NCBI GenBank assembly: GCA_021740225.1
Contig: JAIPAF010000003.1
Coordinates: forward strand, 1 to 37,330
DNA: 37,330 bases
Direction: 5' to 3'
From: Bacteroidales bacterium
GTDB lineage: Bacteria; Bacteroidota; Bacteroidia; Bacteroidales; UBA12077
Below the pieces are notes generated by a model. It was not told the DNA's origin. It was given only the letters and a program-made list of their open reading frames with translations, and ran no database searches. Shown piece after piece: positions 16,225 to 31,502 of this stretch (positions within the stretch are counted from its first letter, which is position 1; each line of letters opens with the position of its first letter). The translations under genes and the position numbers were made by a program.

Positions 16225-19200
16225 ATGTTTTCTTTCAAAAATTTTAATACGGTTGCCCGGTTTGAGTCCAAAACACTCATGCGGAGCTGGTTCTTGCGTA
16301 TTTTTGCAATCATTGCCTTTATCGTACTGATCTTTTTTAATATCCTCGTTTCGCAGCAGGATTTTTCCCCCAGAGTGCTCAGAGGATTACCCACCAATAT
16401 TCCCTACGCATCCCTGTTGATATTTAATGTTATTCAGGCTGTTATAGCTGTTTTCCTTGCAACTGATTTTATGAAAAGGGATAAAAAACAGGATACAACA
16501 GAAGTAATTTACGTACGCTCACTTTCCAATGCAGAATATATTTGGGGCAAAGTATTTGGAAATTTAAAGGTTTTTCTCGGCCTGAATGTGCTTATCCTGC
16601 TTATTCCACTCATATTCACTCTGGTTACCCAGGATATGACACTAAACCTGTTGGGTTACGGCTTATATTTTCTTTTAATTTCACTGCCCACATTATTATT
16701 CATTTTTGGATTATCATTCTTTCTGATGGCATGGCTGAGGAACCAGGCTATCGTATTGCTTGTGCTGTTGGGCTACATTGCCTTAACCCTGTTTTATCTG
16801 GACGATAAGCTCTACTACATCTTTGATTACATGTCATTCAACATTCCCATGATATGGTCGGAATTTATTGGTCTGGCGGATTCTTCCCGTATTATAATGC
16901 ACAGGGCATTATACGTTTCACTGGGAATTGCAATGGTTTTCCTTACGGTTCTTTTAATGAAACGCCTTCGTCAGTCCAATTCGGCTTACTGGATTTCATG
17001 GACCGGCGGGATTCTATTCCTGGGAATTGCTGTATTCCTTGCTGCAAATCATATCGAAAAGGAGACTTCTATGCGCCAATTCCGGAACAAGTTGATCGCC
17101 CTGAATGATCAGTATCTTCAGAATAATTTGCCGAGGGTTCGGGAATATGATCTTGATCTTGTCCACAAAGGAGATAAGGTTCAGATGGTGGCTGAAATGG
17201 AAGTGCTCAATCCCACCGGCGAAAAGCTCGACTCTCTTATTTTCAGCTTAAACCCAGGATTTAAACTGAACAGATGTACCATTGATGGTCAAGAAAACGG
17301 ATACAGAAAAGACCATCATTTGGTTATTATCGATAAAACTTTGAAGCCCGGGGATTCAACTAATATCACTCTACATTATGCCGGCCGGCCAGATGAAAGG
17401 GTATGCTATCTGGATGTTCCAAACCGGCTTCTGTTCAGAGGCGAACATATGATCTTGTTCAGAATGCCTAAAAAATTCAGCTTCACTACTCCCGGTTATC
17501 TGATGTTTACACCGGAACTTTTATGGTATCCTGTAGCGGGAACTGGGTTCTCAACCAAAAATGTAGCGGGTTTCCGAAAGAATTTTGCAGAATATCAATT
17601 GACAGTAGAACCTGCCAAAAATATGACGGTACTCAGTCAGGGGAAAGCCGAAAGGGAAAACGAAAAATGGGTCTTTGAACCCGGAAAACCTATGACATGC
17701 ATGTCGGTTATTGCCGGAAAATACCAGCGGGATTCCCTTACGGTAGATAACATAACCTACAACATCTATCATAAAGCCGGTCATGACATATACAATCCCT
17801 TCTTTAACGATATCCGGGATACCATCCCATCGATCATTAAAACTGTAATGGGGAATTATGAGTCGGATCTGCATCTGGAATATCCCTTTGAAAATTTTTC
17901 CATTATTGAAGTACCGGCTCAATTTCATGCCTATAAGAAGAATTTCACCCTTGCCAATGAAGCTACTTTACCCCAAATGGTATTGATGAAGGAACGTGCA
18001 TTCTCTTTAGACGGTGCTGATTTTCCCCGGTCTTTAAGAAGAAGGCTAACACGGAGTGATAGGGATCGTTCGGCTGAGGATATAAAAGCCGAATTGTTCA
18101 GGCAATTCATTCAGTCCAACTTTATCGAAGGTGAGGATTTTCGCAGGGGGTGGTTCAGAGCCGAGGACATCAGTGGCAACACAAAAATATTCCCCAATTT
18201 TATTTCCTATACCAATGATTTTGGAGTTAAGGAACTTCCCGTGATGAATCCGGTCCTTGAGCGATACATAGAAAGTCGCAGCACAGAAGAGGACAGGAGC
18301 AGATTCTTAGGTAACGACGGAGTGGGAGAAGAAGAGAGAGCAAATCTTCTGTTGAAGAATAATTCATTCGCCGAGTTGATGAGCGATACAGCCCATTTTG
18401 TCCGTCTCAGTGATGTAATCGATATCAAAGGGAGTTACTTTATTGATCTGATGAAGCATTTCTCAGGAAATTTCGACTTCGATCCGGTGCTTGACAGCTT
18501 TATTGTAGCTTCGCGCTATCAAAACAACACCGGTGAGATATTCCTGGATTACATGAAAAACAGATATAATGTAAACACAGAAAAGTATATGAACGACTGG
18601 CTATATTCCAAACAGTTGCCTGCATTTGAATTCACCGATATGGATGCTTACTCTTATTATGAAAAGGAGCGGCCCAGGTATCAGGCAGAAATTACCATCA
18701 CAAATACAGGCAAAGGTTTGGGTATCGTAAATTTGAACATGCGTATAGGACGACGGAGAAACAGCAGTTTGTCGGAAGAAAAGACGGTCATCCTGGATCC
18801 GGGGCAAAGCAAAAGAATCGGATTGTCTGTGGGTGAAGAACCCTCCATGTTAATTGTCAATACGCTTGTCTCTTCCAATTTGCCTTCCACCCTGAATTTT
18901 CCTTTGCAGGATATTAAAGAAGACAAGGATGCCAATGGCGGTGAATTTATCCGGGAGGTGGAACCGCCTTCCTCCGGGGATGAAGCCATTATAGTAGACA
19001 ATGAGGATCCTTCGTTCCGTGTCTTAGTCCCTGAAAAAGCTATAAAGCTGAGGGACCTTATTCAAAACAACCAAAGCCGGGAAGAATATACAGGGGTAAA
19101 TCCCTGGCGTCCACCGGAAGAATGGCAAAAAGCCATCCACAGCAAGTTTTACGGAGAGGTCAAATTATCGGCCAATTATGTCAGAGCCGGTAATGGAGAA

Positions 19201-19509
19201 CAAAAAGCTCTTTGGATGGTGCCCATAAAGGATGGGGGATACTACGAAGTACAGGCCTATGTCTCCGATGCAGGACTACAGCCACAATGGGGCCGCGGCG
19301 GAGAGAATAACGAAGAAAAACTTTATCATTATAAGATATTCCATGACAGCGGTGAAGAGGTTATTCCGGTTAATGCCAGAAACTATGAGGGCGACTGGGT
19401 CTCGCTGGGAGAATATTATTTTTCCCCGGATTCAGCAAAAATTCAAATATCCAATCAATCCAAAGCCAGAACGGTGGTCGCTGACGCCGTTAAACTAATC
19501 CAAAAATAA
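16225..19509 (+). CDS. ABC-2-type permease fused to an M1-aminopeptidase-like ectodomain (no HEXXH) and a C-terminal golvesin/xanthan-lyase-CBM-like domain
   Basis: About 275 aa polytopic N-terminus (ARFESKTLMRS, EYIWGK); YDLDL..LNPG..GDSTNITLHYAG..WYP pattern of M1-like N-domains; C-terminal IVDNED...WVSLGEYYF...VVADAVK. Confidence 0.65.
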   Translation: MFSFKNFNTVARFESKTLMRSWFLRIFAIIAFIVLIFFNILVSQQDFSPRVLRGLPTNIPYASLLIFNVIQAVIAVFLATDFMKRDKKQDTTEVIYVRSLSNAEYIWGKVFGNLKVFLGLNVLILLIPLIFTLVTQDMTLNLLGYGLYFLLISLPTLLFIFGLSFFLMAWLRNQAIVLLVLLGYIALTLFYLDDKLYYIFDYMSFNIPMIWSEFIGLADSSRIIMHRALYVSLGIAMVFLTVLLMKRLRQSNSAYWISWTGGILFLGIAVFLAANHIEKETSMRQFRNKLIALNDQYLQNNLPRVREYDLDLVHKGDKVQMVAEMEVLNPTGEKLDSLIFSLNPGFKLNRCTIDGQENGYRKDHHLVIIDKTLKPGDSTNITLHYAGRPDERVCYLDVPNRLLFRGEHMILFRMPKKFSFTTPGYLMFTPELLWYPVAGTGFSTKNVAGFRKNFAEYQLTVEPAKNMTVLSQGKAERENEKWVFEPGKPMTCMSVIAGKYQRDSLTVDNITYNIYHKAGHDIYNPFFNDIRDTIPSIIKTVMGNYESDLHLEYPFENFSIIEVPAQFHAYKKNFTLANEATLPQMVLMKERAFSLDGADFPRSLRRRLTRSDRDRSAEDIKAELFRQFIQSNFIEGEDFRRGWFRAEDISGNTKIFPNFISYTNDFGVKELPVMNPVLERYIESRSTEEDRSRFLGNDGVGEEERANLLLKNNSFAELMSDTAHFVRLSDVIDIKGSYFIDLMKHFSGNFDFDPVLDSFIVASRYQNNTGEIFLDYMKNRYNVNTEKYMNDWLYSKQLPAFEFTDMDAYSYYEKERPRYQAEITITNTGKGLGIVNLNMRIGRRRNSSLSEEKTVILDPGQSKRIGLSVGEEPSMLIVNTLVSSNLPSTLNFPLQDIKEDKDANGGEFIREVEPPSSGDEAIIVDNEDPSFRVLVPEKAIKLRDLIQNNQSREEYTGVNPWRPPEEWQKAIHSKFYGEVKLSANYVRAGNGEQKALWMVPIKDGGYYEVQAYVSDAGLQPQWGRGGENNEEKLYHYKIFHDSGEEVIPVNARNYEGDWVSLGEYYFSPDSAKIQISNQSKARTVVADAVKLIQK

Positions 19510-19515: not shown

Positions 19516-20997
19516 ATGATTCTAAAACGCTTTATTGCTATCTTTTTTTTATCTTTTTTGGTTGTATCAGCCGGCGCACAACAGTTGCTGACACTTGAAG
19601 AAGCGTTGGAAATTGCCAACGACAACAGCCCGGAAGTAAGAAAAAGCCGATTGAACAGGCAACGCAGCAAAAATTTTCTGGATGCGCAAAGGGCTTCGCT
19701 AAAAACCAATTTCAACCTTTCTCTTGAGCCTTTCAACTACTCAAGAGAAGAACGATTTTATGAAATGGAATCCAGGTGGCAAACCACCGAAATGTATTCC
19801 AGCATGGCCAATTTTAGCATTTCTCAGCCAATCACGCTTACAGACGGGGAACTATCCCTGAACAACCGGCTTGCCTGGCAACATTCCACCACGGAAGTAG
19901 GCACACAACTAAACGAAGATATTGCTTTCAGTAACAATTTGTTTCTGCAGTACGAACAGCCCCTGTTCTCCTATAATGAAACCAAACAGAATCTGGAAGA
20001 ACTGGAGCTGGATTACGAAAGGTCAGACATACAATACAGGCTTCAAAAGCTAAACACAGAGGTACAGGTAACCAGAAGCTATTATAATTTGTATGCCTCT
20101 CAAATGGCATTGGAAATATCCAGAGAAGAACTGAAAAATCAGAAGGAGAATTACCAGGTTGTGCAAAACAAAGTAGATGCCGATTTACTGGCCTTAGAGG
20201 AACTTTATCAGGCGGAAGTTAACCTGACCTCGGCACGTTCACAGGTTTATACCCGTGAAGTTCAGCTCCAAAATGCGAAGGATGATTTCAAACAACTCAT
20301 TGGAATGGATCTGGACAGAAATTTCAGGGTTGAACTCGATATAGAGATCGATTCGGTAGATATAAACATGGATAAAGCCATACAGAATGCCCTTGGATCT
20401 CGCCTGGAGATCCGCAACCGGGAGATCGAACTTCAAAACGCCAAGTTCAACCTCATTGAAACCAGTGACCGGAATAAATTTAAAGGAAATGTATCGGTTT
20501 CTGTTGGTGTTCAAGGAGTAGACAAACAATTTGCTGATATGTACGATGTACCTACAACCAGCCCTTCCATTTCGCTAAGCTTTAACGTTCCCATCTGGGA
20601 CTGGGGGGCTCGCGAAGCCCGTATAAAAGCTGCTAAATTGAATGTACAATCCAATCGGATTGATTTGAATGAGGAGTCCAAATCGATTAACCTGGGCATT
20701 CGCCAAACTATACGGAACCTAAGGAATTATAAGAATCAGATAGAGATAGCCAGAAAGAATCAAAAGAATGCCCAACTGACTTATGATATCAACCTGGAAC
20801 GGTACAACAGGGGTGATCTTACCGGAATGGATATTCAGCAATACCAGAACCAACTAAGTCAGGCGAAAATGGATCTGACCACAGCCCTCATCGATTATAA
20901 AATGGAACTGCTTAATCTTAAAATGCAGACGCTGTACGATTTTATAGAAAATGAACCGTTGCTCCCCAAAAATGTAGTTAACAGTATTTTAGAATAA
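19516..20997 (+). CDS. TolC family outer membrane efflux protein
   Basis: Signal peptide; LTLEEALEIA..NSP, YEQPLF, V.RSYYNL, ERYNRG, VPIWDWG; two-repeat OEP architecture. Confidence 0.9.
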   Translation: MILKRFIAIFFLSFLVVSAGAQQLLTLEEALEIANDNSPEVRKSRLNRQRSKNFLDAQRASLKTNFNLSLEPFNYSREERFYEMESRWQTTEMYSSMANFSISQPITLTDGELSLNNRLAWQHSTTEVGTQLNEDIAFSNNLFLQYEQPLFSYNETKQNLEELELDYERSDIQYRLQKLNTEVQVTRSYYNLYASQMALEISREELKNQKENYQVVQNKVDADLLALEELYQAEVNLTSARSQVYTREVQLQNAKDDFKQLIGMDLDRNFRVELDIEIDSVDINMDKAIQNALGSRLEIRNREIELQNAKFNLIETSDRNKFKGNVSVSVGVQGVDKQFADMYDVPTTSPSISLSFNVPIWDWGAREARIKAAKLNVQSNRIDLNEESKSINLGIRQTIRNLRNYKNQIEIARKNQKNAQLTYDINLERYNRGDLTGMDIQQYQNQLSQAKMDLTTALIDYKMELLNLKMQTLYDFIENEPLLPKNVVNSILE

Positions 20998-21002: not shown

Positions 21003-22088
21003 ATGAATTGTATGCATACAAAAACTTTTTTCTTTTTACGAATCCTTTCCGCTATCACCCTCTTTGCGATGATGATTTCCGGGTGTAACCAGGGAGAGAT
21101 CAGCAGAGACAGTGATGTTGCCGTACCTGTGTCGGTTACGGAAGCCAATTATGAAGCCATTAGTGAATTCCTGCAAACCACCGGCACAGTGAATGCTGTT
21201 CATTCAGCAGAGCTGGTGACCAAAGTGGAAGGAGATTATTTTCTTCAAACCAATCCGAGAACCAACCAAAAGTTTGCCCTGGGTGATCAGATAAAAGAAG
21301 GGGAAACACTAATAAAGCTAAAAAACAGGGAATATGAGCTGGGTATTCAGATTGAATCAGTAAAACTGGAGCAGAAAATAGCCAAACAGGAATATGAAAA
21401 GCAACAAGCTCTATACGAAAAGGGGGGGGTGACCCTTCGGGAACTGACCAATGCCGAAAAAACTTATATCAATGCCCAGAATGCTTTAGAAGAAGCCAAA
21501 CTGAACCTGAACAAGCTTTCCGTAACCGCTCCCATCACCGGATTTATCACTCAACTACCCTACTATACCCCGGGAACCCATATGAATGCCAATACCAACG
21601 TTGCCAAAATAATGGATTACCGTGAATTGATGCTGGAAGTGAGTTTTCCGGAGAAAACCCTGCCGATAATTCAGACCGGCCAACAAGTAAGAATAAATCA
21701 TTATTCCCTGGATACAGCGCAAGCCCTTGAGGGTAGAGTAACGGAGATTTCTCCTGCTGTGGATCCGGACACCCGTATGTTTGATGCCAAAATCCGGGTA
21801 CAGAATCAACAAAAACGGCTTCGGCCGGGAATGTTCGTAAAAGCCAATGTTATGGTAGAACATAAAGACAGTGTGATCACTCTGCCGCGGGAAATCGTGC
21901 TCGAGAGAAACGACCGGCAGATCGTATATGTGGTCCAGCAAGACCGGGCCCATGAAAGAAATGTAGTAACGGGAATTGAATCCGGCGACAGGGTTGAGAT
22001 CATTGACGGGATTGAAGAGGATGAACGGGTGGTCACCGACGGCTACGAAACACTGAGGGACCGGAGTAGGGTGAAGGTGCTGCAATGA
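21003..22088 (+). CDS. RND efflux periplasmic adaptor (MFP), lipoprotein
   Basis: Lipobox-like ISGC; VTAPITGFI, ISPAVDPDTRMF, LRPGMFV, V.TGIE....VEI..G, VVTDG; start 21003 or 21012. Confidence 0.92.
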   Translation: MNCMHTKTFFFLRILSAITLFAMMISGCNQGEISRDSDVAVPVSVTEANYEAISEFLQTTGTVNAVHSAELVTKVEGDYFLQTNPRTNQKFALGDQIKEGETLIKLKNREYELGIQIESVKLEQKIAKQEYEKQQALYEKGGVTLRELTNAEKTYINAQNALEEAKLNLNKLSVTAPITGFITQLPYYTPGTHMNANTNVAKIMDYRELMLEVSFPEKTLPIIQTGQQVRINHYSLDTAQALEGRVTEISPAVDPDTRMFDAKIRVQNQQKRLRPGMFVKANVMVEHKDSVITLPREIVLERNDRQIVYVVQQDRAHERNVVTGIESGDRVEIIDGIEEDERVVTDGYETLRDRSRVKVLQ

Positions 22089-22089
22089 A

Positions 22090-22141: not shown

Positions 22142-22167
22142 AAAATAATAAAATTTAAGTAAGAAAG

Positions 22168-22539: not shown

Positions 22540-22583
22540 TTAAAATTCAACTATTCATGCGTACAATCATTAAAATCTCCATA

Positions 22584-22655
22584 CTTTCACTCATTCATAC
22601 ATTGAAGCATTCAAACATTCATGCATTCACGCATTTTAGCATCCAAGCATTTCAT
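22584..22655 (-). repeat. Degenerate 8-bp tandem array (CATTCAnG) x9, inverted relative to 22090-22141
   Basis: CTTTCACT CATTCATA CATTGAAG CATTCAAA CATTCATG CATTCACG CATTTTAG CATCCAAG CATTTCAT; its reverse complement contains AATGCGTGAATGC and GAATGCATGAATG, both found in the upstream array. Confidence 0.85.
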
Positions 22656-22705
22656 AACTAATATATCATAACATAAAGAACCACATTACAGATAAAAAGG
22701 ATTCC

Positions 22706-25700
22706 ATGATAAAACTAACCCGCTTCTCAGTAAAATACCCGGTAACCATTACAATGCTTGTTTTTGCAGTCCTGCTTCTCGGTTACATCTCATTTAACCG
22801 CCTGGGGACGGACTTGTTTCCCGATTTAAGAAATCCGCGGTTGTTTGTAGAACTTCATTCCGGAGAAAAACCCCCTTCGGAAATTGAATCGAGGTTTGCA
22901 GAAAACATAGAAAGTCTGGGTATACGCCAAAACGGAGTGACCGATGTTTCCACGGAGATTGGTACAGGAAGGATGTTAACCACCATTCATTATGAATGGG
23001 GACAGGACATGAATGCTGCCTTTCTTGATCTACAAAAAGCACTTTCTTCTGTGGCCACCAATCAGGAAGTGGACGAGCTTAACATCTACCAGAACGATCC
23101 CAACGCCGCACCCATCATGAGGGTAATCGTCAGTAATGCGGACATCAATGATATGAATCTGCTGCGACAGACGGCGGAGAATTATATTTATAACCAGTTG
23201 GTGCGGCTGAATGGAGTGGCCGATGTTGAACTCTCCGGTGAAGAAGAGGCGCAACTGCTCATTCAAACGGAAAGCTATCTTATGGACGCTCACGGTCTAT
23301 CCATGGACGAGATATCTTCCCGTATTCAGGCTTTCAACCGTGATATCAGCGGGGGTACGCTTGAGGAAAAAGGAACGGAATATCTCATCACGGGAGAAAG
23401 TTTATTGGGAAAGGTGGAGGATTTTCGCAACCTGATTGTGGGATACCAGCAGAAAACTTCCAGAAACAATGAGCGCACTCAAATTCCTGTCACCCTTGAA
23501 CAAGTGGCTGATGTGCAAATGAAAAACAAAGACCCTGATAACATGGTTTACTTCAACGGGGAGCGGTGTATCGGACTTGCCATTTACAAGGAGCAGGGCA
23601 AAAACACCGTGGATATAGTAAAATTGGTAGACCAGGCCCTGACTGATTTAAACAAGGCTTTGCCGGGCTACCGGTTCACCGTTGTAGAAAACCAGGGAGA
23701 ATACATTGACCAGGCCATTGGTGAAGTAGAAAACACTGCCCTTATCGGTATTTTATTGGCGGTTTTCGTGCTTTTCCTATTTTTACGGCGATTGCGTGTA
23801 ACGCTCATTGTTTCGGTGGCCATCCCCATATCAATCATTGCCACTTTTAATCTAATGTATTTTAACGGTTTAAGCCTAAATGTAATGACATTGGGTGGTC
23901 TTGCCCTCGGGGCCGGTATGCTGGTGGATAATGCCATTGTAGTAATCGAAAATATATTCCGCCACATCGAAGAGGGTTCCTCTGTGAAAGATGCTGCCAT
24001 ACAAGGCACGGCAGAGATGGGAGGAGCCATTACAGCCTCTACACTCACCACCATCGTAGTATTTTTACCTATTGTATACCTGCATGGTGAATCGGGCGAA
24101 TTATTCAAGGAAGAAGCCTGGACCGTGGCATTTTCTCTCTTGTCCTCTCTTTTTGTTGCTCTGCTTGTTATTCCGGTAATGACGGATAAGTGGATCAAAG
24201 CGGAGCGGAAAAAAACATTGAAATCAGTAAATATAGGGTGGTATGGCCGGTGGCTGAGCGGGATTCTCAACAAGCGATGGCTCGTTATTGGACTCAGTGC
24301 AGGTTTGATCGGCTTTGCCGCTTTATTGCTGCCGCGCGTGGGAAGTGAATTCATGCCCAAATCCCAGGGTGGCGCATTTGCTGTTTCAATAGAACTTCCC
24401 GGCGGTACCCGTTTGGAGAAAACAGCCAGGGTGGGCCGGCAGGTGCAGGCTATGATGGACGATGCCTTTGGTGATAAAGTGTCCTATTATTACCTGCATG
24501 TGGGACCCGGAACTGAAGAAGATGCTGCTACTACAGAACTAATGCAGGGAAGCAACTTCGCCAGCATTCAGGTACAACCCAAAGAGGGGGCGGTCATCCG
24601 CCCCGAAGAGGTGATTGCATTGACCAACTCCTCACTAGGTGATGTATCGGGCCTGAAAATAGAATACAAACAAAAACAAACAAGCCTGGATGAGATTCTG
24701 GGAACCGATGCATCTCCCCTTGTCGTCCAAACTTCCGGAGAAGAGCTGGAACAGATCGAATCGATCACCGAGAATATTCGTAAAGAACTTACAGGCATTG
24801 AAGGATTGTATGACGTAAAAACCAATTTTGATAAGGGCGCACCTGAAATTGAAGTCCGCGTAGACCGGTACCAGGCGGGAATGTACAATATCAGCCTGGA
24901 TCAGATAGTCAATCAGATTGAAAGGCAATTGACCGGAATGGAAATAGGGGAGTTCGACAGGGAAGGAGAGATGACCGATATTACCCTGAAATTACCTGAT
25001 TTGAGCAGAAAAGACCTTGAAGAGCTGGAGTTGAGATCGGGGAATCAGGTTATACGGCTGGACCAGATTGCCACCTTCCATACCGGTCAGTCACCGGGAA
25101 AGATATACCGGGAAAACCAAAAACGGGTGGGTAAAGTAATGGCCCGTATTGAAGAGGATATAACCCTGGATCGTGTGGTCAAAAAAGTAAATGCCAAACT
25201 GGCCGGGATAGAATTCCCAGCCCGTTATCAAACAGAAATCACAGGAGAAGAACAAAAGAGAGCAGAATCTTTCGCAAGTCTAAAATTTGCACTCATACTC
25301 TCCATCATTCTGGTATATATGGTGATGGCCTCGCAATTCGAAAGTCTGCTACATCCCATGACTATTCTGCTTTCACTGCCTCTTGCTTTCACCGGTCCCG
25401 TATTTTTATTTCTTGGAATAGGTGAATCATTTAACATCATAGCATATATTGGCATTATCATGCTGGCAGGAATAGCGGTGAACAACAGCATCATCCTTGT
25501 TGATGCCATCCGCCGGTATCAGCGACAGGGAATGGTAAAGCGGGATGCCATATTACAAGCCGGGCAAAACCGTATAAGACCCATTGTGATGACCAGCATT
25601 ACCACCATTCTGGCGCTATTACCGTTAACCATTGACTTCGGTCAGAGTGCCGAGCTCCGTTCCCCAATGGCCTGGGCTGTTATAGGAGGTTTGATCACAT

Positions 25701-25789
25701 CAACCATCCTTACGCTAGTGACCATCCCTTGCGTGTATTACATTTTTCAGCGAAAAGAAGTATTGTCAAATCCGGAAGATCAGGAATAA
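22706..25789 (+). CDS. RND efflux transporter permease subunit (AcrB/MdtB family)
   Basis: 1027 aa; AIPISII.TF, LN.MTLGGLALG.GMLVDNAIVVIENI, ASTLTT..VFLP, VYMVMASQFES, RIRPIVMT, PMA.AVIGGL. Confidence 0.95.
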   Translation: MIKLTRFSVKYPVTITMLVFAVLLLGYISFNRLGTDLFPDLRNPRLFVELHSGEKPPSEIESRFAENIESLGIRQNGVTDVSTEIGTGRMLTTIHYEWGQDMNAAFLDLQKALSSVATNQEVDELNIYQNDPNAAPIMRVIVSNADINDMNLLRQTAENYIYNQLVRLNGVADVELSGEEEAQLLIQTESYLMDAHGLSMDEISSRIQAFNRDISGGTLEEKGTEYLITGESLLGKVEDFRNLIVGYQQKTSRNNERTQIPVTLEQVADVQMKNKDPDNMVYFNGERCIGLAIYKEQGKNTVDIVKLVDQALTDLNKALPGYRFTVVENQGEYIDQAIGEVENTALIGILLAVFVLFLFLRRLRVTLIVSVAIPISIIATFNLMYFNGLSLNVMTLGGLALGAGMLVDNAIVVIENIFRHIEEGSSVKDAAIQGTAEMGGAITASTLTTIVVFLPIVYLHGESGELFKEEAWTVAFSLLSSLFVALLVIPVMTDKWIKAERKKTLKSVNIGWYGRWLSGILNKRWLVIGLSAGLIGFAALLLPRVGSEFMPKSQGGAFAVSIELPGGTRLEKTARVGRQVQAMMDDAFGDKVSYYYLHVGPGTEEDAATTELMQGSNFASIQVQPKEGAVIRPEEVIALTNSSLGDVSGLKIEYKQKQTSLDEILGTDASPLVVQTSGEELEQIESITENIRKELTGIEGLYDVKTNFDKGAPEIEVRVDRYQAGMYNISLDQIVNQIERQLTGMEIGEFDREGEMTDITLKLPDLSRKDLEELELRSGNQVIRLDQIATFHTGQSPGKIYRENQKRVGKVMARIEEDITLDRVVKKVNAKLAGIEFPARYQTEITGEEQKRAESFASLKFALILSIILVYMVMASQFESLLHPMTILLSLPLAFTGPVFLFLGIGESFNIIAYIGIIMLAGIAVNNSIILVDAIRRYQRQGMVKRDAILQAGQNRIRPIVMTSITTILALLPLTIDFGQSAELRSPMAWAVIGGLITSTILTLVTIPCVYYIFQRKEVLSNPEDQE

Positions 25790-25798
25790 GCCTTCACT

Positions 25799-28700
25799 AT
25801 GAACAAATTTGTAAAGCGAAAAATACTGGTCTCCATGCTGTTCCTGGCTTTAGTCATGCTGGGAATCTTTTCCTATCGATCGATGCCGGTTGAACTATTT
25901 CCAAGCGCCGAAACACCGGTACTCTATGTCCAGGTAAACTACCGTTCCCAAATAAACCCTCATTTTGTGGAAAAGGATGCCATCATTCCCCTGGAGGGGA
26001 TCATCAGTGAAGAAGAAGGTGTTGATGAGCTGGAATCGAACATTTCACAAAGGCGGGCAACCATTGTGGTTACCTTCAGGCAGGATGTGGACATCAACTA
26101 TGCTTATCTGAAGCTGGAGCAAAAGATACAGGAGTTTCAGCGGGAACACCGGGAAAACTATATGGTAAACCTGGTCAAGGTCAATACCGACATGTCCTCC
26201 AACCAGTTTATGACCATCCAGGCGCGGGGTGAAGGCGATATCGACCGGATTCGGAATGTCGTTGATCAGGAGATCCTTTCCGATCTGGTGGCAGTGAATG
26301 GCGTAGGTGATGCTACGGTTCAGGGAGGACAGGAACGATCCGTTGAAGTAATTTTTGATGAGGAAACCTGTGAGGCCCTTCACATCACACCCGGAAGGAT
26401 CAATAACCGGCTCAATATGTATTCCAATCAGCGGCTATATGGCGGGATGGTCTATGATGTGGGCAAACGCTGGATTGTAAACGTATCCGGTGAATTAACC
26501 AGCATCAATGAACTAGGGGATATCATACTGGATGACAACGGTAACGTTCGTCTGCAGGATGTGGCTACAATCAACATGGGAAAAAAAGAGCGGGAAACCA
26601 TCAGCCGTGTAAACGGCATGGAAGCAGTGACCATAACGATCTATAACGACGCCAATGTAAATGATATCACACTCTACCATAAGCTACAGGATGCCATAGA
26701 AAATATTAACTCGGAGATGGCTTCCAATCGAGTTGAACTGGTTATCCAGAGCTGTGAGGCTGAAACCATGGAAGAGAACATGAATCAGATACTCAGCCTT
26801 GCTTTAATCGGCGGATTACTGGCCATCTTCGTCCTATGGATATTCCTGCGGAACATACGTTTGGTAGTTGTTGTGGCGCTTGCGATACCCATTTCCATCT
26901 TCGCCTCGATTAATTTTCTCTATGCTGCCGGCATTACCATCAACACGCTCACTTTAATGGGTGTGGCCCTGGCCATCGGGATGCTCCTGGATAACAGTGT
27001 GGTGGTGCTGGAAAATATCTATCGGTTAAGGACAGAAGGTGCCACTCCAGTAGGTGCTGCATCCGGAGGAACAAGACAGGTGATCCGTGCCGTGACGGCC
27101 GCTACTCTTACAACAATAGCCGTTTTTCTGCCCTTTGCATTTTCTACAGAGTTCTTCATTAAACTCTTGGGGAACAATGTGGGGTTTTCCATTATTTTTA
27201 CCTTGCTGGTGTCGCTTCTTGTGGCACTAATATTTATACCGATGGTGGTATACCAATTCCTCAAAGCCCGCAGGAAAGCCCTGACCCTCCATTCGATAAA
27301 TTTTCGAAAACCAATAATTCGCGGATACCTGATATTGTTAAGATTTTGTCTGCGCCATCCTGCCCAGGTGCTCTTTACCATGGTCTTGCTATTTTTTGCC
27401 GCAGTAGTGATTAGTCTGTCAGTTAGTGTAAACACCCTACAGGAAGCGGAAACAGACAGTTTTCGGGTTTCAATCACCATGCCGGGGGGTACAACCCTGA
27501 AAACCTCCGATGAAACGGTAAGCAATATGGAGGACGATCTCGGAAATATAGAGGAGATTGATGAAGTAGTCAGCAACATTGAAGCAGAAGAAGCTTCCAT
27601 GATCATCCAATTGAAGGAAGAGTTTAAAAAGATCAACGACCGGAGTGTAGCTCAAATAAAAGATGATGTACTGAATAGGCTGGATGTATATAACAACGTT
27701 CATGTTAGCATTACGGACATGACCTCGTCTGATGACAGCAACTTCAATATTGGAGGCGGTGCTTCAGATTTTTTGAGTTTCATGGGTGTCGGACAACAAA
27801 CGGAAGAGGTGCTCATCAAGGGTTCGAATTATGAAGATATGGTTTTGGTTGGTGAAAATGTAGAGTATATACTTTCTGAAGAATCGGATAATGTAACCTC
27901 GGCGCGCCTGCAAATATCGCGTGAACAGCCGGAGGTGAGGGTACTTTTCGACCAACGCCTAATGGAGGCTTTAAATATAGATTACACCAGTGTGCAACAG
28001 GAGATGAACGCTTTCTCCAGGCAACTCGAGAGTGGTATGACCTTTAAACAGGGTGATGAGGAATACGATATTACCATACGCAGCAAACAGGCTGAAGAAA
28101 ATCAAAAAGAACAAAAAGGCATGGAAGATCTCCGGCATTTGCTCATAGATGCTGACAATGATAGTGTTGTTTCCTCCCATCATCTAATGGATTTCAGTTC
28201 CCTGCGCTATAGTGAAGGAATTGCTTCCATTCACCGGCAAAACAGGGAAAAAAGCATCTCGGTAAATTACCGCTTTTCATCTGAAATCAATGAAGACAAT
28301 GATTTGCTGGAGAGTGCCCGTGCCGAAGTAGACGAACTGATTTCCGGTTTATACGTTCCACCGGGAGTAGCGGTAGAAGTACAGCATGAGCAGGATCAAT
28401 ACGGTGAATTCAAAATGCTTATTCTTGCTGCCTTTATACTGATCTATATGATCCTTGCTTCCGTATTTGAAAGCTTTTCCACCCCATTCGTCCTGTTGTT
28501 TTCCATACCCTTGGCGGCCATCGGATCGCTCATGGGGCTCATTTTAACCGGAAATTCCCTGCTCAATGCCAATACCCTTATTGGGTTTCTCATCCTCCTG
28601 GGAGTGGTGGTCAATAATGGGATCATACTGATTGATTTTGTGCAAAATATGAGGTTCAATGGAGCCAGGATTGCACGAGCCGTTATCAGTGCAGGATTGC

Positions 28701-30514
28701 TTCGTGTGCGCCCGATTCTCATTACCGTGATCACCACAGTTATAGGAATGCTTCCACTGGCCATGGGACAGGGCGAATATGTAGGTAGCATTGGAGCTCC
28801 TTTTGCCATCACAGTGATTGGCGGGTTGCTGTTTTCCACCTTGTTCACACTGGTAATCATTCCCACCGCCTACTACGCAATGGAAACCACCCTTCGTTGG
28901 TTTGCTTCGCTTCCGCTTCACATCAAGATCATCAACTGGATGCTTTTGCCGGCAGGTATAGTGCTGGCCATCATAGAGGCGGATACCCTGCTGTGGCAAA
29001 TGGTTGGCGTGGTTGCCGTATTGACTGTTGTGCCTGCAACGACCTGGTTTTTCACCGAAAGCCTGCGTAAAGCATCAGCGGACGTAATCGACAGAAATAG
29101 TGACATCGTTATCCGTATCCGAAACCTGGTAAAAATCTATGACCGGCCTTCAAGACCCCTGCGTGAATGGCTGGGGAACAAGCATCTGAATGAACTCCTT
29201 GGTATGGGAGAAGAAAAACAAAATTCACGTCAGGAGCTGATATGGCAGATGCCGCTTCTGGGCTTCCTCGGATGGTTTGCCTGGTTTTATCAGTCGGGGG
29301 GATTTTGGACATACATCTTATCTGTGGCGTTATGGTTTTACTTAATTTTCCTGATTAAACGTCTCATTACCCTGTTTCCCTCATCCCGTGTTAAAAGATG
29401 GTTTTCCCGGCTGCATTGGATTGTTCTTCGGTTTTTCCCTCTTGTTATACTCGGAGTCTATCAAATCAAATTCACGAATACGGGAGCCACGGTTGTCTGG
29501 GGATTACTCACTTATTTCCTTCTGGGCATTTATCTTACTTCACAACACCTCAAGGAAAACCGGGTGAACACCGCCCGCATCAAAGGGCGTTTTGCCGGTC
29601 TGAAAAAACTATGGATAAACCTTGTGCGCGCCGTGCCGATGATCGGTCGTGAGCGAAAGCCTTTCAAAGCGCTGAAGAGTGTCTCGATGGATATCGGTCA
29701 TGGAATGTTTGGCCTGCTTGGCCCCAACGGAGCAGGCAAGACAACCCTGATGCGGATTATATGTGGTGTGCTGGAGCAGAGCTATGGGAAGATCACCATC
29801 AACGAGATCGATACCCTTGAAAAACGGGAAGAATTGCAGGGGTTGATCGGATATTTGCCCCAGGAATTCGGCATGTATGAAAATATGACCGCCAGGGATT
29901 ACCTGGATTACCAGGCCATACTCAAAGGTTTGCACAATCCGCAAACCCGTAAGGAAAGGGTGGACAATGTATTGCAGTCGGTTCACATGATTTCCAATGC
30001 CAATAAAAAGATCGGTTCGTTCTCAGGGGGTATGAAACAACGGATAGGAATTGCCCAGGTATTGCTGAACCTACCCCGTATACTGGTGGTGGATGAGCCA
30101 ACAGCCGGACTGGATCCCCGTGAACGCATCCGCTTCCGAAATCTTTTGGTAGAGCTGAGCAGTGAACGGGTAGTGATCTTCTCTACCCATATTATCGAAG
30201 ATATTGCCAGTTCGTGCAACCAACTGGCAGTGCTTGACAAAGGAAACCTGAAATATTACGGAAAACCGGCTGAGATGGCATCACTGGCAAAAAACAGGGT
30301 ATGGCAGTTTGATGTTCCGGCAGAACAATTTGAAGGGATAGCCCAGGATTTGAAAGTGGTTCATCATATAAGAAAAGGAGAAAATATCCGTGTGAGGGTA
30401 GTGAATCCCGACAAGCCGCATGAAAATGCCCAAAATGTTACTGCTGTGCTTGAAGACGCCTATATATGGCTCCTGAACTTCAGCGGAAAAAACAATACAA
30501 TTCAATCATCTTAA
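25799..30514 (+). CDS. RND permease fused to a C-terminal ABC ATP-binding domain
   Basis: aa 1 to about 1030 full RND (GMLLDNSVVVLENI, YMILASVFES, RVRPILIT); extra TM helices; then GPNGAGKTT, GYLPQ, FSGGM, VVDEPT, FSTH in the same uninterrupted 1571-aa ORF. Confidence 0.9.
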   Translation: MNKFVKRKILVSMLFLALVMLGIFSYRSMPVELFPSAETPVLYVQVNYRSQINPHFVEKDAIIPLEGIISEEEGVDELESNISQRRATIVVTFRQDVDINYAYLKLEQKIQEFQREHRENYMVNLVKVNTDMSSNQFMTIQARGEGDIDRIRNVVDQEILSDLVAVNGVGDATVQGGQERSVEVIFDEETCEALHITPGRINNRLNMYSNQRLYGGMVYDVGKRWIVNVSGELTSINELGDIILDDNGNVRLQDVATINMGKKERETISRVNGMEAVTITIYNDANVNDITLYHKLQDAIENINSEMASNRVELVIQSCEAETMEENMNQILSLALIGGLLAIFVLWIFLRNIRLVVVVALAIPISIFASINFLYAAGITINTLTLMGVALAIGMLLDNSVVVLENIYRLRTEGATPVGAASGGTRQVIRAVTAATLTTIAVFLPFAFSTEFFIKLLGNNVGFSIIFTLLVSLLVALIFIPMVVYQFLKARRKALTLHSINFRKPIIRGYLILLRFCLRHPAQVLFTMVLLFFAAVVISLSVSVNTLQEAETDSFRVSITMPGGTTLKTSDETVSNMEDDLGNIEEIDEVVSNIEAEEASMIIQLKEEFKKINDRSVAQIKDDVLNRLDVYNNVHVSITDMTSSDDSNFNIGGGASDFLSFMGVGQQTEEVLIKGSNYEDMVLVGENVEYILSEESDNVTSARLQISREQPEVRVLFDQRLMEALNIDYTSVQQEMNAFSRQLESGMTFKQGDEEYDITIRSKQAEENQKEQKGMEDLRHLLIDADNDSVVSSHHLMDFSSLRYSEGIASIHRQNREKSISVNYRFSSEINEDNDLLESARAEVDELISGLYVPPGVAVEVQHEQDQYGEFKMLILAAFILIYMILASVFESFSTPFVLLFSIPLAAIGSLMGLILTGNSLLNANTLIGFLILLGVVVNNGIILIDFVQNMRFNGARIARAVISAGLLRVRPILITVITTVIGMLPLAMGQGEYVGSIGAPFAITVIGGLLFSTLFTLVIIPTAYYAMETTLRWFASLPLHIKIINWMLLPAGIVLAIIEADTLLWQMVGVVAVLTVVPATTWFFTESLRKASADVIDRNSDIVIRIRNLVKIYDRPSRPLREWLGNKHLNELLGMGEEKQNSRQELIWQMPLLGFLGWFAWFYQSGGFWTYILSVALWFYLIFLIKRLITLFPSSRVKRWFSRLHWIVLRFFPLVILGVYQIKFTNTGATVVWGLLTYFLLGIYLTSQHLKENRVNTARIKGRFAGLKKLWINLVRAVPMIGRERKPFKALKSVSMDIGHGMFGLLGPNGAGKTTLMRIICGVLEQSYGKITINEIDTLEKREELQGLIGYLPQEFGMYENMTARDYLDYQAILKGLHNPQTRKERVDNVLQSVHMISNANKKIGSFSGGMKQRIGIAQVLLNLPRILVVDEPTAGLDPRERIRFRNLLVELSSERVVIFSTHIIEDIASSCNQLAVLDKGNLKYYGKPAEMASLAKNRVWQFDVPAEQFEGIAQDLKVVHHIRKGENIRVRVVNPDKPHENAQNVTAVLEDAYIWLLNFSGKNNTIQSS

Positions 30515-30540
30515 AACAAGGAGGAAATTTTCAAACCAGT

Positions 30541-31254
30541 ATGGTAAAACTGATAAAACATTGGCTTATCAACTCCGTGCAAATCACCCGGCACAACCTG
30601 AAAATCATATTCGGGGATAAATTTCCCTTCTTCCTGTTGGGGGCATTTGCCATATTCATCTTCATCGTGTTAATCAATTTGTTCGGGGGTGATCCGTTCA
30701 CCAGTGAATCGGTTTATTCACTGCTGGTCTTTGAAGGGATCATCATCGTATTTTTCCCCACCATCTATGCGGTACAGACGGATATTGACAAACGGACCAT
30801 AGAGATTCTTTTCGGCATTCCCGATTACCGTTATAAAGTATGGCTAGTACGCCTTCTGATCGCCTTCATCGTATGCTGGGTTCTTCTGGCGGTACTGGCC
30901 CTGATGTGCTATTTCGCACTGGTCAGTTTTCCCGTGGGCACCATGATCTATTATGTCATCTTTCCGGTTTTTGCCCTGGGAAGCCTGGGATTCCTCATTG
31001 CAACCCTGGTAAAAAACGGAAACAGCGCTGCGGTTGTAGCTATAATCATTGGTTTGGGCTTATGGGTATTATCCGAGGCATTGGTAGATAGTCAGTGGAA
31101 CGTCTTTCTCAACCCGTTTGATGAGGCCGATATGGCCGGACAAATATGGGAAGCTACCATAAGGAAGAACCGCCTGTTCCTTTTCGTTGCCGGAGTGGTA
31201 TTTCTTGTGGGTGGTTTACTAGGTCTCCAGAACCGGGAAGGGTTTATGCAGTAA
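30541..31254 (+). CDS. ABC-2-type transporter permease
   Basis: About 6 hydrophobic helices; D.D.RTIEILFGIPDYRYKVW..RL loop typical of ABC-2 TMDs. Start ATG 30541 preferred over 30466, which overlaps the upstream gene. Confidence 0.7.
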   Translation: MVKLIKHWLINSVQITRHNLKIIFGDKFPFFLLGAFAIFIFIVLINLFGGDPFTSESVYSLLVFEGIIIVFFPTIYAVQTDIDKRTIEILFGIPDYRYKVWLVRLLIAFIVCWVLLAVLALMCYFALVSFPVGTMIYYVIFPVFALGSLGFLIATLVKNGNSAAVVAIIIGLGLWVLSEALVDSQWNVFLNPFDEADMAGQIWEATIRKNRLFLFVAGVVFLVGGLLGLQNREGFMQ

Positions 31255-31268
31255 AATTGTTTGAAAAG

Positions 31269-31420
31269 AGTTTGAGGGTTTGACAGAAGTTTGAGGGTTG
31301 AGCCATTGATGGTTATTTATTGTCATTGATGGTCATTAAGTACCCATTTGTTGCCATTCAGTGGTTAATTCGATGGTCATTCAGTGGTCATTCGATTGTA
31401 ATTCAGGAACATTGATTACC
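31269..31420 (+). repeat. Intergenic degenerate tandem repeats: AGTTTGAGGGTT x2, then about 10 units of 10-12 bp (GGTCATT-core)
   Basis: 12-mers at 31269-31280 and 31288-31299; then AGCCATTGAT GGTTATTTAT TGTCATTGAT GGTCATTAAG ... TGCCATTCAGT GGTTAATTCGAT GGTCATTCAGT GGTCATTCGAT TGTAATTCAGG. Confidence 0.75.
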
Positions 31421-31443
31421 ATCCGTCAAAAGCCGAACAAGTG

Positions 31444-31468
31444 TATGGTCATATATTTATGAACCATA
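31444..31468. terminator. Hairpin between convergent genes, possible terminator
   Basis: TATGGTCATA-TATT-TATGAACCATA (10-bp stem with 1-nt bulge); AT-rich and no clear U-tract. Confidence 0.3.
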
Positions 31469-31502
31469 TATCTTCAGGTCAAAAATCTGTCCGACCCATA
31501 GC

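What the first reader, a model, noticed from the sequence alone, without database searches (positions are those of the whole stretch)
25799..30514. RND permease covalently fused to an intact ABC ATPase
Seen: a single 1571-aa ORF with a complete RND followed by an NBD retaining Walker A (29720-29743), Q-loop, FSGGM signature, Walker B DE and H-loop. The NBD is a close paralogue of the free ATPase at 15314 (GMFGLLGPNGAGK; DEPTxGLDPxERIRFRNLL in both). Inference: the ATPase duplicated within the locus and one copy fused to the RND; intact motifs argue that it is still active.
Basis: partly seen in the sequence, partly recalled or inferred. Interest (0 to 1): 0.8.

Follow-up and report, generated by a model that had tools for sequence, protein, structure and literature searches.

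The report
RND pump fused to ABC ATPase
A bacterial drug-pump-type membrane protein that normally runs on the proton gradient is here permanently joined to an intact ATP-burning motor domain, in a gene set conserved in many Bacteroidales, which hints at an unstudied two-engine export machine.

Summary
Window 25799..30514 (+) is one 1571-aa ORF with a full-length RND permease (ACR_tran 2-1028) and a complete ABC ATPase domain, with every catalytic motif present.

It is not an assembly artefact. In 67 of 67 related loci that hold the whole frame, RND and ATPase are one frame, including cultured Marinifilum and Perlabentimonas.

- The "linker" holds six predicted membrane helices.
- The ATPase domain is split: its first beta-strand (res 1103-1116) lies about 170 residues, with four membrane helices, before the rest.
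- The gene sits in a conserved set: free ATPase, large ABC-2-like permease, TolC-like, adaptor, RND1, RND2::ATPase, small ABC-2 permease.

The ATPase is the best-conserved part (median 68% identity against 45% for the RND part). It is predicted to dock on the downstream permease through a canonical interface (ipSAE 0.63, best control 0.00). That permease has a NosY/ABCG-type fold (Z 15.4).

Most likely an ATP-driven ABC-2 exporter is tethered to a heteromeric RND tripartite pump. Functional coupling is inferred, not shown.

The duplication idea is only partly supported: the two ATPases are 43% identical and the split is old. Six full-text searches found no paper on this fusion.

The parts
15314..16213 (+). 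Free ABC ATPase (P0002, 299 aa), paralogue of the fused ATPase domain
   Evidence: ABC_tran E 2.2e-35. 43% identical to the fused domain. Orthologues (60-64% identity) were found in every genome searched that holds the fusion: 5 of 5, 2 of 2 and 3 of 3 in the phylum sample. None were found in the 397 sampled genomes without the fusion.
16225..19509 (+). Large membrane protein (P0005, 1094 aa): 6-7 N-terminal membrane helices, big extracytoplasmic part, Golvesin_C end. Probably an ABC-2-type permease with a large outer domain.
   Evidence: Golvesin_C E 5.8e-16. Hydropathy peaks at residues 24-277. ABC2_membrane_2 is only sub-threshold (E 0.14, profile 3-263 of 283). Atlas look-alike clusters are named 'ABC transporter permease' and carry Golvesin_C (score 0.99; a lead only).
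19516..20997 (+). Outer membrane factor (TolC-like, 493 aa)
   Evidence: Pfam OEP E 8.9e-40, two stretches. Conserved in synteny in 53 loci at more than 60% coverage.
21003..22088 (+). Periplasmic adaptor / membrane fusion protein (361 aa)
   Evidence: HlyD_D23 E 4.5e-22 and HlyD_3 E 2.4e-17. Conserved in synteny in 57 loci.
22706..25789 (+). RND1 (P0004, 1027 aa), unfused RND permease directly upstream of the fusion
   Evidence: ACR_tran E 5.3e-215. 27% identical to the RND part of the fusion. Directly upstream in all loci with enough flank (61 distant and 4 near loci at more than 60% coverage).
25799..30514 (+). The fusion ORF (P0001, 1571 aa): RND2, 2 membrane helices, ATPase strand beta1, 4 membrane helices, ATPase core, C-terminal domain
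25799..28885 (+). RND permease part (res 1-1029), 12 membrane helices plus periplasmic domains
   Evidence: ACR_tran 2-1028. Best NCBIfam equivalog-type match is MdtC at 275.6 bits, far below its cut-off. Solved relatives include MexB, MdtB, MdtF, ZneA, AcrB and CmeB.
28916..29077 (+). Two extra membrane helices (res 1040-1060, 1064-1093) after RND helix 12
   Evidence: AF2 helices H11-31 and H35-64 of the C-terminal model, with block pLDDT of 85-89 over most of them, falling to 73 and 60 at model residues 51-70. Hydropathy peaks at 1041-1086.
29105..29146 (+). Detached first beta-strand of the ATPase domain (IVIRIRNLVKIYDR, res 1103-1116)
   Evidence: Conserved in 68 aligned sequences. It is a strand (E76-85) in the model. 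ATPase-only solved chains align from their residue 1-2 to model residues 72-75; for example LptB 4p33_A gives Z 28.2, rmsd 2.0, 231 aligned of 235.
29228..29560 (+). Four-helix membrane insertion inside the ATPase domain (res 1144-1254), between beta1 and beta2
   Evidence: AF2 helices H115-135, H139-163, H167-196 and H199-225, with block pLDDT 78-91. Charged loops fit the positive-inside rule (read from the sequence). The module was found only in this fusion family: 75 clusters in 1.84 billion representatives, and all full-length hits are 1550-1577 aa.
29657..30511 (+). ATPase core and C-terminal domain (res 1287-1571). Walker A 29720-29743, Q-loop 29852-29872, signature 30020-30043, Walker B 30080-30103, H-loop 30179-30196.
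   Evidence: ABC_tran E 1e-28. Motif coordinates. Motif residues invariant in 78 sequences. Fold matches TM_1403, NosF, LptB and ABCA ATPase domains.
30466..31254 (+). Small ABC-2 (type V) permease (P0003). The ORF from 30466 overlaps the fusion's end by 49 bases. A second ATG at 30541 gives 237 aa.
   Evidence: AF2 pLDDT 84.9, pTM 0.82. Best fold match is NosY 7o0y_D with Z 15.4, rmsd 3.9, 216 aligned, and the top 18 rows are all ABC-2/type V membrane domains. Pfam ABC2_membrane_3 is only sub-threshold. Directly downstream in 79 of 80 loci. Predicted to dock on the fused ATPase.

Best explanation
This is a genuine, conserved single polypeptide of 18 predicted membrane helices. It consists of an MdtC-like RND permease, then two extra membrane helices, then a catalytically competent ABC-2-type ATPase domain. 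The first strand of that domain is separated from the rest by a four-helix membrane insertion.

Proposed mechanism:
- The ATPase domain works as the motor of an ABC-2 (type V) exporter. Its membrane domain is the small permease encoded directly downstream.
- The second half of that exporter is probably supplied by the operon's free paralogous ATPase and its large permease, giving a heterodimer.
- The RND part, together with the upstream RND1, the adaptor and the TolC-like protein, forms a proton-driven tripartite pump. RND1 and RND2 probably form a heterotrimer, as MdtBC does.
- The covalent link holds the ATP-driven exporter against the RND pump. A substrate moved out of the cytoplasm or inner leaflet by the ABC part would then be handed to the RND part and expelled through the outer membrane.

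Status of each step:
- Shown: the fusion, its conservation, the intact motifs, the split ATPase domain in the model, the fold of the permease, and the co-occurrence of all parts.
- Predicted: docking of the ATPase on the permease.
- Inferred: the heterodimer, the heterotrimer and the two-step hand-over.
- Unknown: the substrate.
For: - Architecture.
- One frame in 67 of 67 complete loci. Of the 120 database hits listed, the query itself included, all 120 carry both PF00873 and PF00005; 115 are 1483-1597 aa and 5 are 880-1052 aa, most of them on short contigs. Cultured hosts include four named Marinifilum species and Perlabentimonas gracilis.
- ATPase under the strongest constraint: median identity 68% against 45% (RND part), 33% (linker) and 43% (permease) in the distant loci. 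All catalytic motif residues are invariant in 78 of 78 sequences.
- Split domain: model pLDDT 81. More than 40 ATPase-only chains align from residue 1-2 at model residues 72-75 and then skip the insertion; LptB gives Z 28.2, rmsd 2.0, 231 of 235 aligned.
- Permease: NosY-type fold, Z 15.4, well above unrelated rows at 7.6 or less.
- Docking: ipSAE 0.63, 0.63 and 0.69, best of 3 controls 0.00. The mark was reached by 58 of 80 solved complexes and 2 of 110 mismatched pairs. The runs agree in at least 81% of contacts and the partner's pLDDT is at least 77. The interface joins the Q-loop/helical-subdomain region (res 1319-1381) to the permease's N-terminal helix and the invariant EILFGIPDYRYK loop. 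Because ABC-2 complexes are solved, this pass may reflect likeness.
- Gene set conserved.
- Co-occurrence: the free ATPase orthologue and the fusion are in the same 4 of 401 sampled genomes of the phylum and in none of the other 397. The two are also together where the set is split over two contigs.
- Precedents: heterotrimeric MdtBC (passage in PMC8277102) and an ABC exporter with an adaptor protein in one operon, YbhGFSR (passages in PMC7190983).
Against: - No experiment and no expression data. No RNA run holds the stretch, which says nothing either way.
- The four-helix insertion and the two extra helices are not in the confident predicted interface with the permease, so their role is unexplained.
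- An ABC dimer does not fit a threefold RND trimer without an asymmetric (heteromeric) assembly, and that assembly is only inferred.
- The docking pass may come from memory of solved ABC-2 complexes.
- P0003 and the N-terminal part of P0005 show no detectable similarity to each other (hhalign probability 0.5%). Neither reaches Pfam's ABC-2 cut-offs.
- The tether could serve assembly or stoichiometry only, without any substrate hand-over.
- Both RNDs lack the AcrB-type Asp408 and Lys940, so proton coupling of the RND part is assumed, not shown.
Confidence: 0.55

Rival explanations
1. ATP-powered or ATP-gated RND pump. Movements of the ATPase domain pass through the six extra membrane helices into the RND membrane domain and drive or license its cycle, replacing or supplementing the proton gradient.
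For: - Covalent link, with a membrane insertion inside the ATPase domain that has no known counterpart.
- Both RNDs of the set lack two of AcrB's three key relay residues. The helix 4 pair is Asp-Asn, not Asp-Asp, in 65 of 68 fused and 67 of 67 RND1 sequences. Helix 10 has Asn, not Lys, in 67 of 68 and 64 of 67 (mapped through the alignment to a solved pump).
- The insertion is not used in the confident interface with the permease.
Against: - The same Asp-Asn / Asn-Asn pattern occurs in 2 RNDs outside this gene set in two compared genomes (L088, L092). Other patterns (DD/K, DD/R, DG/L, DN/K) are also common there. So the pattern is not tied to the fusion.
- The unfused RND1 has the pattern too.
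- The ATPase has a canonical predicted interface with a canonical ABC-2 permease that is always encoded next to it.
- The linker is the least conserved part, at 33%.
Confidence: 0.12
2. Scaffold only. The fusion merely fixes stoichiometry or co-localisation of two independent transporters (an ABC-2 exporter and an RND pump), or is a neutral fusion of neighbouring genes, with no hand-over of substrate.
For: - Gene fusions of operon neighbours are common (general knowledge).
- The linker is poorly conserved, at 33%.
- There is no predicted confident contact of the extra helices.
Against: - The fused state is kept in 67 of 67 complete loci, down to about 50% identity.
- The linker module with the split strand exists only in this family and was never found unfused at full length.
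- All parts co-occur strictly in the sampled genomes, even when the set is split over two loci.
Confidence: 0.2
3. The ATPase domain is a regulatory or sensing module (for example, reporting cellular ATP). It does not energise any transport, and the downstream permease is a passive partner.
For: C-terminal regulatory-type domains occur in this ATPase class. The model aligns with TM_1403 and NosF over their C-terminal domains as well.
Against: The catalytic Glu, H-loop His, Q-loop and signature are invariant in 78 of 78 sequences, which is typical of hydrolysing sites. A dedicated permease and a paralogous ATPase always accompany it.
Confidence: 0.05
4. Artefact. A misassembly, a frameshift read-through or a missed stop joins two separate genes.
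For: None was found. The window comes from a 57%-complete metagenome-assembled genome.
Against: One frame in 67 of 67 loci from independent assemblies, including isolate genomes and closed chromosomes. Logan contigs cross the junction without indel or joint.
Confidence: 0.01

Closest known systems
MdtBC / MuxBC-type paired RND permeases (HAE-1 RND, heterotrimer)
   Same: Two different RND genes lie in tandem (27% identical) behind an adaptor and an outer membrane factor. The best NCBIfam equivalog-type matches are MdtB/MuxB and MdtC. Heterotrimers of this kind are described (passage in PMC8277102).
   Different: The scores lie far below the equivalog cut-offs (275-398 bits against 1584-1774). 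The second RND carries six more membrane helices and an ATPase domain. The AcrB-type Asp408 and Lys940 are replaced. A heterotrimer was not tested here.
ABC-2 / type V ABC exporters (NosFY, Wzm-Wzt, ABCG, ABCA, PmtCD; TM_1403-type ATPases)
   Same: The ATPase fold is nearest to TM_1403, NosF, LptB and ABCA. The downstream permease has the NosY/ABCG membrane fold (Z 15.4). The predicted interface uses the N-terminal helix and the loop after membrane helix 2 against the Q-loop region.
   Different: The ATPase is covalently attached to an RND permease and is interrupted by four membrane helices between beta1 and beta2. The Pfam ABC-2 membrane families are matched only below their cut-offs.
E. coli YbhGFSR (ABC exporter with two different permeases, two ATPase domains and an adaptor protein in one operon)
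   Same: One operon holds an ABC exporter and an MFP-family adaptor that is thought to connect to TolC (passages in PMC7190983). It has two unlike permeases and two ATPase domains (the ABC-2 class of YbhR/YbhS and the tandem domains of YbhF are recalled, not checked).
   Different: YbhGFSR has no RND component and no fusion, and its ATPase domains are joined to each other, not to a permease. Homology to this gene set was not tested here.
MacAB-TolC (ABC-driven tripartite pump)
   Same: An ABC ATPase works with an adaptor and TolC (PMC8277102 passage). The MacB ATPase domain aligns with the model as well as other ATPases do (Z 26.7).
   Different: MacB is a type VII transporter whose ATPase precedes four membrane helices and a periplasmic domain. 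Here the partner permease is a six-helix type V fold and the ATPase follows an RND.
Regulatory insertion of CFTR NBD1 (insertion between the first two strands of an ABC ATPase domain)
   Different: The CFTR insertion is a short soluble, disordered segment. Here it is about 170 residues with four predicted membrane helices.

Membership tests
RND superfamily, AcrB/AcrD/AcrF family (Pfam PF00873) | Full-length match above the curated cut-off | tested here: met
   552.8 bits against a cut-off of 28; residues 2-1028 on profile 3-1020 of 1021.
RND superfamily, AcrB-type (HAE-1) proton relay | Asp407, Asp408 (helix 4) and Lys940 (helix 10), numbered as in AcrB (numbering recalled) | tested here: not met
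   Asp398-Asn399 and Asn939-Asn940, where the solved pump 9j3d_J has Asp-Asp and Lys-Asn. The Arg of helix 11 is kept in 68 of 68. The same pattern occurs in unfused RNDs.
NCBIfam NF033617 RND_permease_2 / MdtC equivalog NF007905 | Score above the curated cut-off | tested here: not met
   454.1 bits against 1250, and 275.6 bits against 1774.
MdtBC-type heteromeric RND | Two unlike RND genes in tandem in one operon with an adaptor | tested here: met
   RND1 22706..25789 and RND2 25799.. are 27% identical. The pair is conserved in all loci with enough flank.
MdtBC-type heteromeric RND | Physical heterotrimer | not testable with these tools
   The chains are too long for the complex tool. Needs co-purification or cryo-EM.
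ABC ATPase (Pfam PF00005) | Match above the cut-off, and Walker A, Q-loop, signature, Walker B with catalytic Glu, D-loop and H-loop all present | tested here: met
   101.1 bits against 25. Motifs located. All are invariant in 78 sequences.
ABC ATPase | Contiguous domain fold | tested here: not met
   Strand beta1 (res 1103-1116) is separated from beta2 (res 1287 on) by about 170 residues with four helices. The fold closes in the model. This rests on a predicted model.
ABC-2 / type V exporter | Membrane partner with the six-helix type V fold | tested here: met
   P0003 model: NosY Z 15.4, rmsd 3.9, 216 aligned. The top 18 rows are all type V membrane domains. Foldseek alone gave no row at E of 0.001 or less.
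ABC-2 / type V exporter | Pfam ABC2_membrane family above the cut-off in the permease | tested here: not met
   ABC2_membrane_3 scores 16.5-17.7 bits against 31.6.
ABC-2 / type V exporter | ATPase docks on the permease | tested here: inconclusive
   The prediction supports binding (ipSAE 0.63, best control 0.00; mark reached by 58 of 80 solved complexes and 2 of 110 mismatched pairs; contacts agree at 81% or more; partner pLDDT 77 or more). It may reflect likeness to solved complexes.
GldA gliding-motility ATPase (TIGR03522) / DrrA (TIGR01188) | Score above the curated cut-off | tested here: not met
   179.4 bits against 402.6, and 161.7 bits against 312.45.
MacB-type (type VII) tripartite ABC pump | ATPase followed by four membrane helices with a large periplasmic domain | tested here: not met
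   The ATPase is C-terminal to an RND, and the partner permease has a type V fold.

The most novel reading that the evidence does not exclude
All eight proteins form one asymmetric supercomplex. A heterotrimer of two RND1 and one RND2 carries a single fused ATPase domain. That domain pairs with the free ATPase, and the two sit on the two unlike ABC-2 permeases. ATP hydrolysis and proton flow would be mechanically coupled through the six extra membrane helices. This would be a tripartite efflux machine with two energy sources in one assembly, and the first ABC ATPase domain known with a membrane-spanning insertion.
Probability: 0.15. Interest if true: 0.9.

Novelty: new variant of a known kind. 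Interest (0 to 1): 0.7.

Why it matters
RND pumps and ABC exporters are the two main engines of export across the Gram-negative envelope. They are treated as separate machines with separate energy sources.

A conserved covalent union of the two offers a natural system for testing three questions:
- whether inner-membrane exporters physically hand substrates to RND pumps, an idea supported so far mainly by genetics;
- whether ATP and proton energy can be combined in one pump;
- how a twofold ABC dimer can be mounted on a threefold RND trimer.

[quoted passage not shown] Cultured hosts (Marinifilum species, Perlabentimonas gracilis) make experiments feasible.

Tried and rejected
1. Loss of the AcrB-type proton relay as a sign of ATP drive. 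The Asp-Asn / Asn-Asn pattern is real. It also occurs in the unfused RND1 and in 2 RNDs outside the set, among 27 PF00873 matches in two genomes. It does not discriminate.
2. A free-standing form of the linker plus ATPase module. The 'shorter' search listed 120 hits of 346-858 aa, many named 'partial' and mostly on short contigs. The search of 1.84 billion representatives with the linker alone gave 75 clusters; every full-length one is 1550-1577 aa and the rest look like fragments. No clear unfused form was found, and none is excluded.
3. Similarity between the two permeases. hhalign of P0003's alignment against P0005 residues 1-300 gave probability 0.5%.
4. Promoter and terminator scan of 14900-31600. 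Counts were near the shuffled expectation for terminators (19 against 16.4). The consensus used does not suit Bacteroidota, so the result is uninformative.
5. Expression. No RNA holder is listed for 28400-30100.
6. Run X3 holds only short, more divergent pieces and Walker A look-alikes. It gives no evidence of habitat.
7. Foldseek of the P0003 model against PDB gave no row at E of 0.001 or less. The full VIA-align search was needed.
8. Literature. Six full-text searches and a term search inside the Chem Rev review PMC8277102 (first 300,000 characters only) found no description of an RND-ABC fusion. Subscription journals, TCDB and InterPro could not be searched, and supplements are closed.
10. 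The extra helices against the RND membrane domain, and the ATPase heterodimer, could not be modelled.

Full report
**1. The observation.** Window 25799..30514 (+) is a single 1571-aa ORF under table 11. Pfam places a full-length AcrB/AcrD/AcrF domain at residues 2-1028 (E 1.8e-165) and an ABC ATPase domain at 1292-1436 (E 1e-28).
- Walker A, 29720-29743
- Q-loop, 29852-29872
- signature FSGGMKQR, 30020-30043
- Walker B with Asp-Glu, 30080-30103
- H-loop, 30179-30196

The free ATPase at 15314..16213 shares the quoted strings. It is 43% identical over 275 residues. That makes it the best paralogue in this 57%-complete genome, where the next best is 33%.

**2. Real or artefact.** A search with residues 1030-1571 listed 120 proteins, the query itself included. 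All 120 carry both PF00873 and PF00005. Of these, 115 are 1483-1597 aa and 5 are 880-1052 aa, most of them on short contigs.

In one-genome-per-species contigs, 250 of 268 candidate stretches encode a relative. The best 80 were fetched. They are mostly Bacteroidales or Bacteroidota metagenome genomes. They also include Marinifilum breve, M. flexuosum, M. fragile, M. caeruleilacunae and Perlabentimonas gracilis, plus closed chromosomes.

In 67 of 67 loci where the stop-to-stop frame lies inside the locus, that frame is 1369-1661 aa, and 66 of them are 1560 aa or more. The other 13 loci run off a contig end. A Logan contig of run X1 crosses 27836-30600 with 5 mismatches and no gap or joint, and a second sample covers most of the stretch in pieces without indels. 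X1 may be the source sample.

**3. What lies between the two domains.** Residues 1030-1286 are not a simple linker. Hydropathy and an AlphaFold2 model of residues 1030-1571, built on 78 sequences (pLDDT 81, pTM 0.61), give this order:
- two membrane helices (res 1040-1093)
- a beta-strand (res 1105-1114)
- a short helix
- four long helices (res 1144-1254)
- an amphipathic helix
- the ATPase core, from residue 1287

The strand lies in the conserved segment IVIRIRNLVKIYDR. When the model is aligned with solved structures, ATPase-only chains align from their residue 1-2 to model residues 72-75 and then run on into the core. E. coli LptB 4p33_A, for example, gives Z 28.2, rmsd 2.0 and 231 of 235 residues aligned.

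So the first strand of the ATPase domain sits about 170 residues before the second, with four predicted membrane helices in between. The loop charges, read from the sequence, fit the positive-inside rule and keep the ATPase in the cytoplasm. This rests on a predicted model. A search of 1.84 billion representatives with this module alone found only 75 clusters. Every full-length one is 1550-1577 aa with the module at about residues 1025-1300. The module was thus found only in this fusion family.

**4. Surroundings.** The gene order in the window is as follows:
- free ATPase, 15314
- a 1094-aa membrane protein with 6-7 N-terminal helices and a Golvesin_C end, 16225
- TolC-like protein, 19516
- HlyD-type adaptor, 21003
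- a 123-aa 23S_rRNA_IVP ORF
- RND1, 22706
- the fusion, 25799
- a small permease, 30466 or 30541

The order large permease, TolC-like, adaptor, RND1, fusion, small permease recurs in the fetched loci as far as their flanks reach. The small permease is directly downstream in 79 of 80 loci. In 5 of 5 genomes checked, the free ATPase's orthologue (61-63% identity) lies about 14 kb upstream on the same strand. Two loci, L059 and L070, have only RND1, the fusion and the permease together. In the genome holding L070, the other four genes lie together on another contig. In the one holding L059, a short contig holds the ATPase and the start of the large permease.

Among 401 sampled genomes of the phylum, the linker module and the free ATPase's orthologue (E of 1e-90 or less) occur in the same 4 genomes (3 genera, G000 included). 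Neither occurs in the other 397. Related genomes are not independent, so this is a pattern and not a statistical test.

**5. Is the ATPase active, and with what does it work?** All catalytic residues are invariant in 78 of 78 sequences. Against the 74 distant loci, median identity by segment is as follows:

| Segment | Median identity |
|---|---|
| ATPase part | 68% |
| RND1 | 52% |
| RND part of the fusion | 45% |
| small permease | 43% |
| linker | 33% |

Its fold is nearest to TM_1403, NosF, LptB and ABCA-type ATPase domains. The small permease reaches only sub-threshold Pfam ABC-2 scores. Its model (pLDDT 84.9, pTM 0.82) matches NosY with Z 15.4 (rmsd 3.9, 216 aligned). The top 18 rows of a search over 48,161 chains are all ABC-2/type V membrane domains, and unrelated rows lie at 7.6 or below.

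A complex prediction of residues 1030-1571 with the permease supports binding:
- ipSAE was 0.63, 0.63 and 0.69, and the best of 3 controls was 0.00.
- This mark was reached by 58 of 80 solved complexes and 2 of 110 mismatched pairs.
- Contacts agree in at least 81%, and the partner's pLDDT is at least 77.
- The interface joins the Q-loop/helical subdomain (res 1319-1381) to the permease's N-terminal helix and the invariant loop EILFGIPDYRYK.

Similar complexes are solved, so this pass shows likeness rather than proof. The inserted helices are not part of the confident interface.

**6. The RND part.** It is a complete permease whose nearest NCBIfam equivalog-type model is MdtC, while RND1's are MdtB/MuxB and MdtC. 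All of these score far below their cut-offs. Tandem unlike RNDs recall the MdtBC heterotrimer (passage in PMC8277102).

Mapped through an alignment to a solved pump, helix 4 carries Asp-Asn and helix 10 carries Asn-Asn, where AcrB-type pumps have Asp-Asp and Lys-Asn. This holds in 65-68 of 68 fused sequences and 64-67 of 67 RND1 sequences. As a control, the same pattern appears in two RNDs outside the gene set in two compared genomes, and several other patterns are common there. The pattern therefore neither supports nor excludes ATP drive.

**7. Origin of the ATPase.** A tree of 35 ATPases was built (10 fused, 6 operon-free, 19 others from the same genomes). In it the fused and the free copies are each one clade (SH-aLRT 99). 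Together with three further free ATPases they form one clade (99). Within that clade the free copy groups weakly (86) with the third group. The copies are thus paralogues of one subfamily and the split is old. A duplication 'within the locus' cannot be shown.

**8. Most likely mechanism.** An ABC-2 exporter is tethered to an RND tripartite pump:
- The fused ATPase docks on the small permease.
- The free ATPase and the large permease probably form the other half. E. coli YbhGFSR, which also has an adaptor in its operon, is a partial precedent (passages in PMC7190983).
- RND1 and RND2, with the adaptor and the TolC-like protein, form the outer path.
- A 2:1 RND heterotrimer would carry one fused ATPase. 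That would explain why a second, free ATPase always accompanies it.

These last steps are inference. The rivals are an ATP-driven or ATP-gated RND, a mere scaffold, a regulatory ATPase and an artefact. They are weighed in their own sections.

**9. Novelty.** Databases already annotate such proteins, for example 'efflux RND transporter permease subunit' or 'AcrB/ABC-type ATPase subunit'. Six full-text searches and one in-paper term search found no description of them. The searches cover only open-access papers and preprints.

I rate it a new variant of known kinds: a conserved RND::ABC fusion with a membrane-split ATPase domain, set in an eight-gene system. Interest is 0.7.

Noticed in passing
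window 22168-22539 (+): A 123-aa ORF sits between the adaptor gene and RND1. It matches Pfam 23S_rRNA_IVP (E 6.4e-12, above the cut-off). Gaps of similar size occur between these two genes in some related loci (for example L004), but most loci have none.
   Followed up: partly
window 16225-19509 (+): The 1094-aa protein has 6-7 N-terminal membrane helices, a roughly 700-residue middle part that matches no family (Peptidase_M1 only at E 0.15) and a Golvesin_C end. Atlas look-alikes are 'ABC transporter permease' clusters and, farther off, 'ABC permease/M1 aminopeptidase' clusters.
   Followed up: partly
L059, L070; L130 (G407:C183): In two genomes the system is split in two. RND1, the fusion and the permease stand alone at one locus. 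In one genome (G407) the ATPase, large permease, TolC-like and adaptor genes lie together on another contig; in the other (G406) only the ATPase and the start of the large permease were seen, on a short contig.
   Followed up: yes
L019, L053, L057 (labelled Krumholzibacteriia/-ota), L079 (KSB1), P0129 (Spirochaetales): Fusions about 50% identical to the window's occur in bins labelled as other phyla. In the ATPase tree, the two of these bins that were included (L019, L079) sit among the Bacteroidales copies on short branches. This suggests gene transfer or mis-binning.
   Followed up: partly
L081-L107 (RNDs of G001 and G002): RND permeases of two Bacteroidales genomes show at least seven different residue patterns at the AcrB relay positions (DD/K, DD/R, DG/L, DN/NN, DN/K, DN/ND, DD/ND). 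AcrB's relay is therefore a poor guide in this group.
   Followed up: partly
L129 (G407:C22:13387-14226); L026: One fusion orthologue has a TGA inside the ATPase match. Another (L026) has a shorter frame of 1369 aa. These may be sequencing errors or decaying copies.
   Followed up: no
G001:C165:395205-396017; G003:C2:810974-811786; G003:C4:82914-83756: A third group of free ATPases (43-44% identical to P0002) belongs to the same subfamily clade as the fused and operon-free copies. Their gene neighbourhoods were not examined.
   Followed up: no
window 30466-30541: The small permease has two possible starts. The ATG at 30466 overlaps the fusion's end by 49 bases. The ATG at 30541 lies 27 bases after the stop. 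The orthologue alignment becomes conserved only from about the second start.
   Followed up: partly
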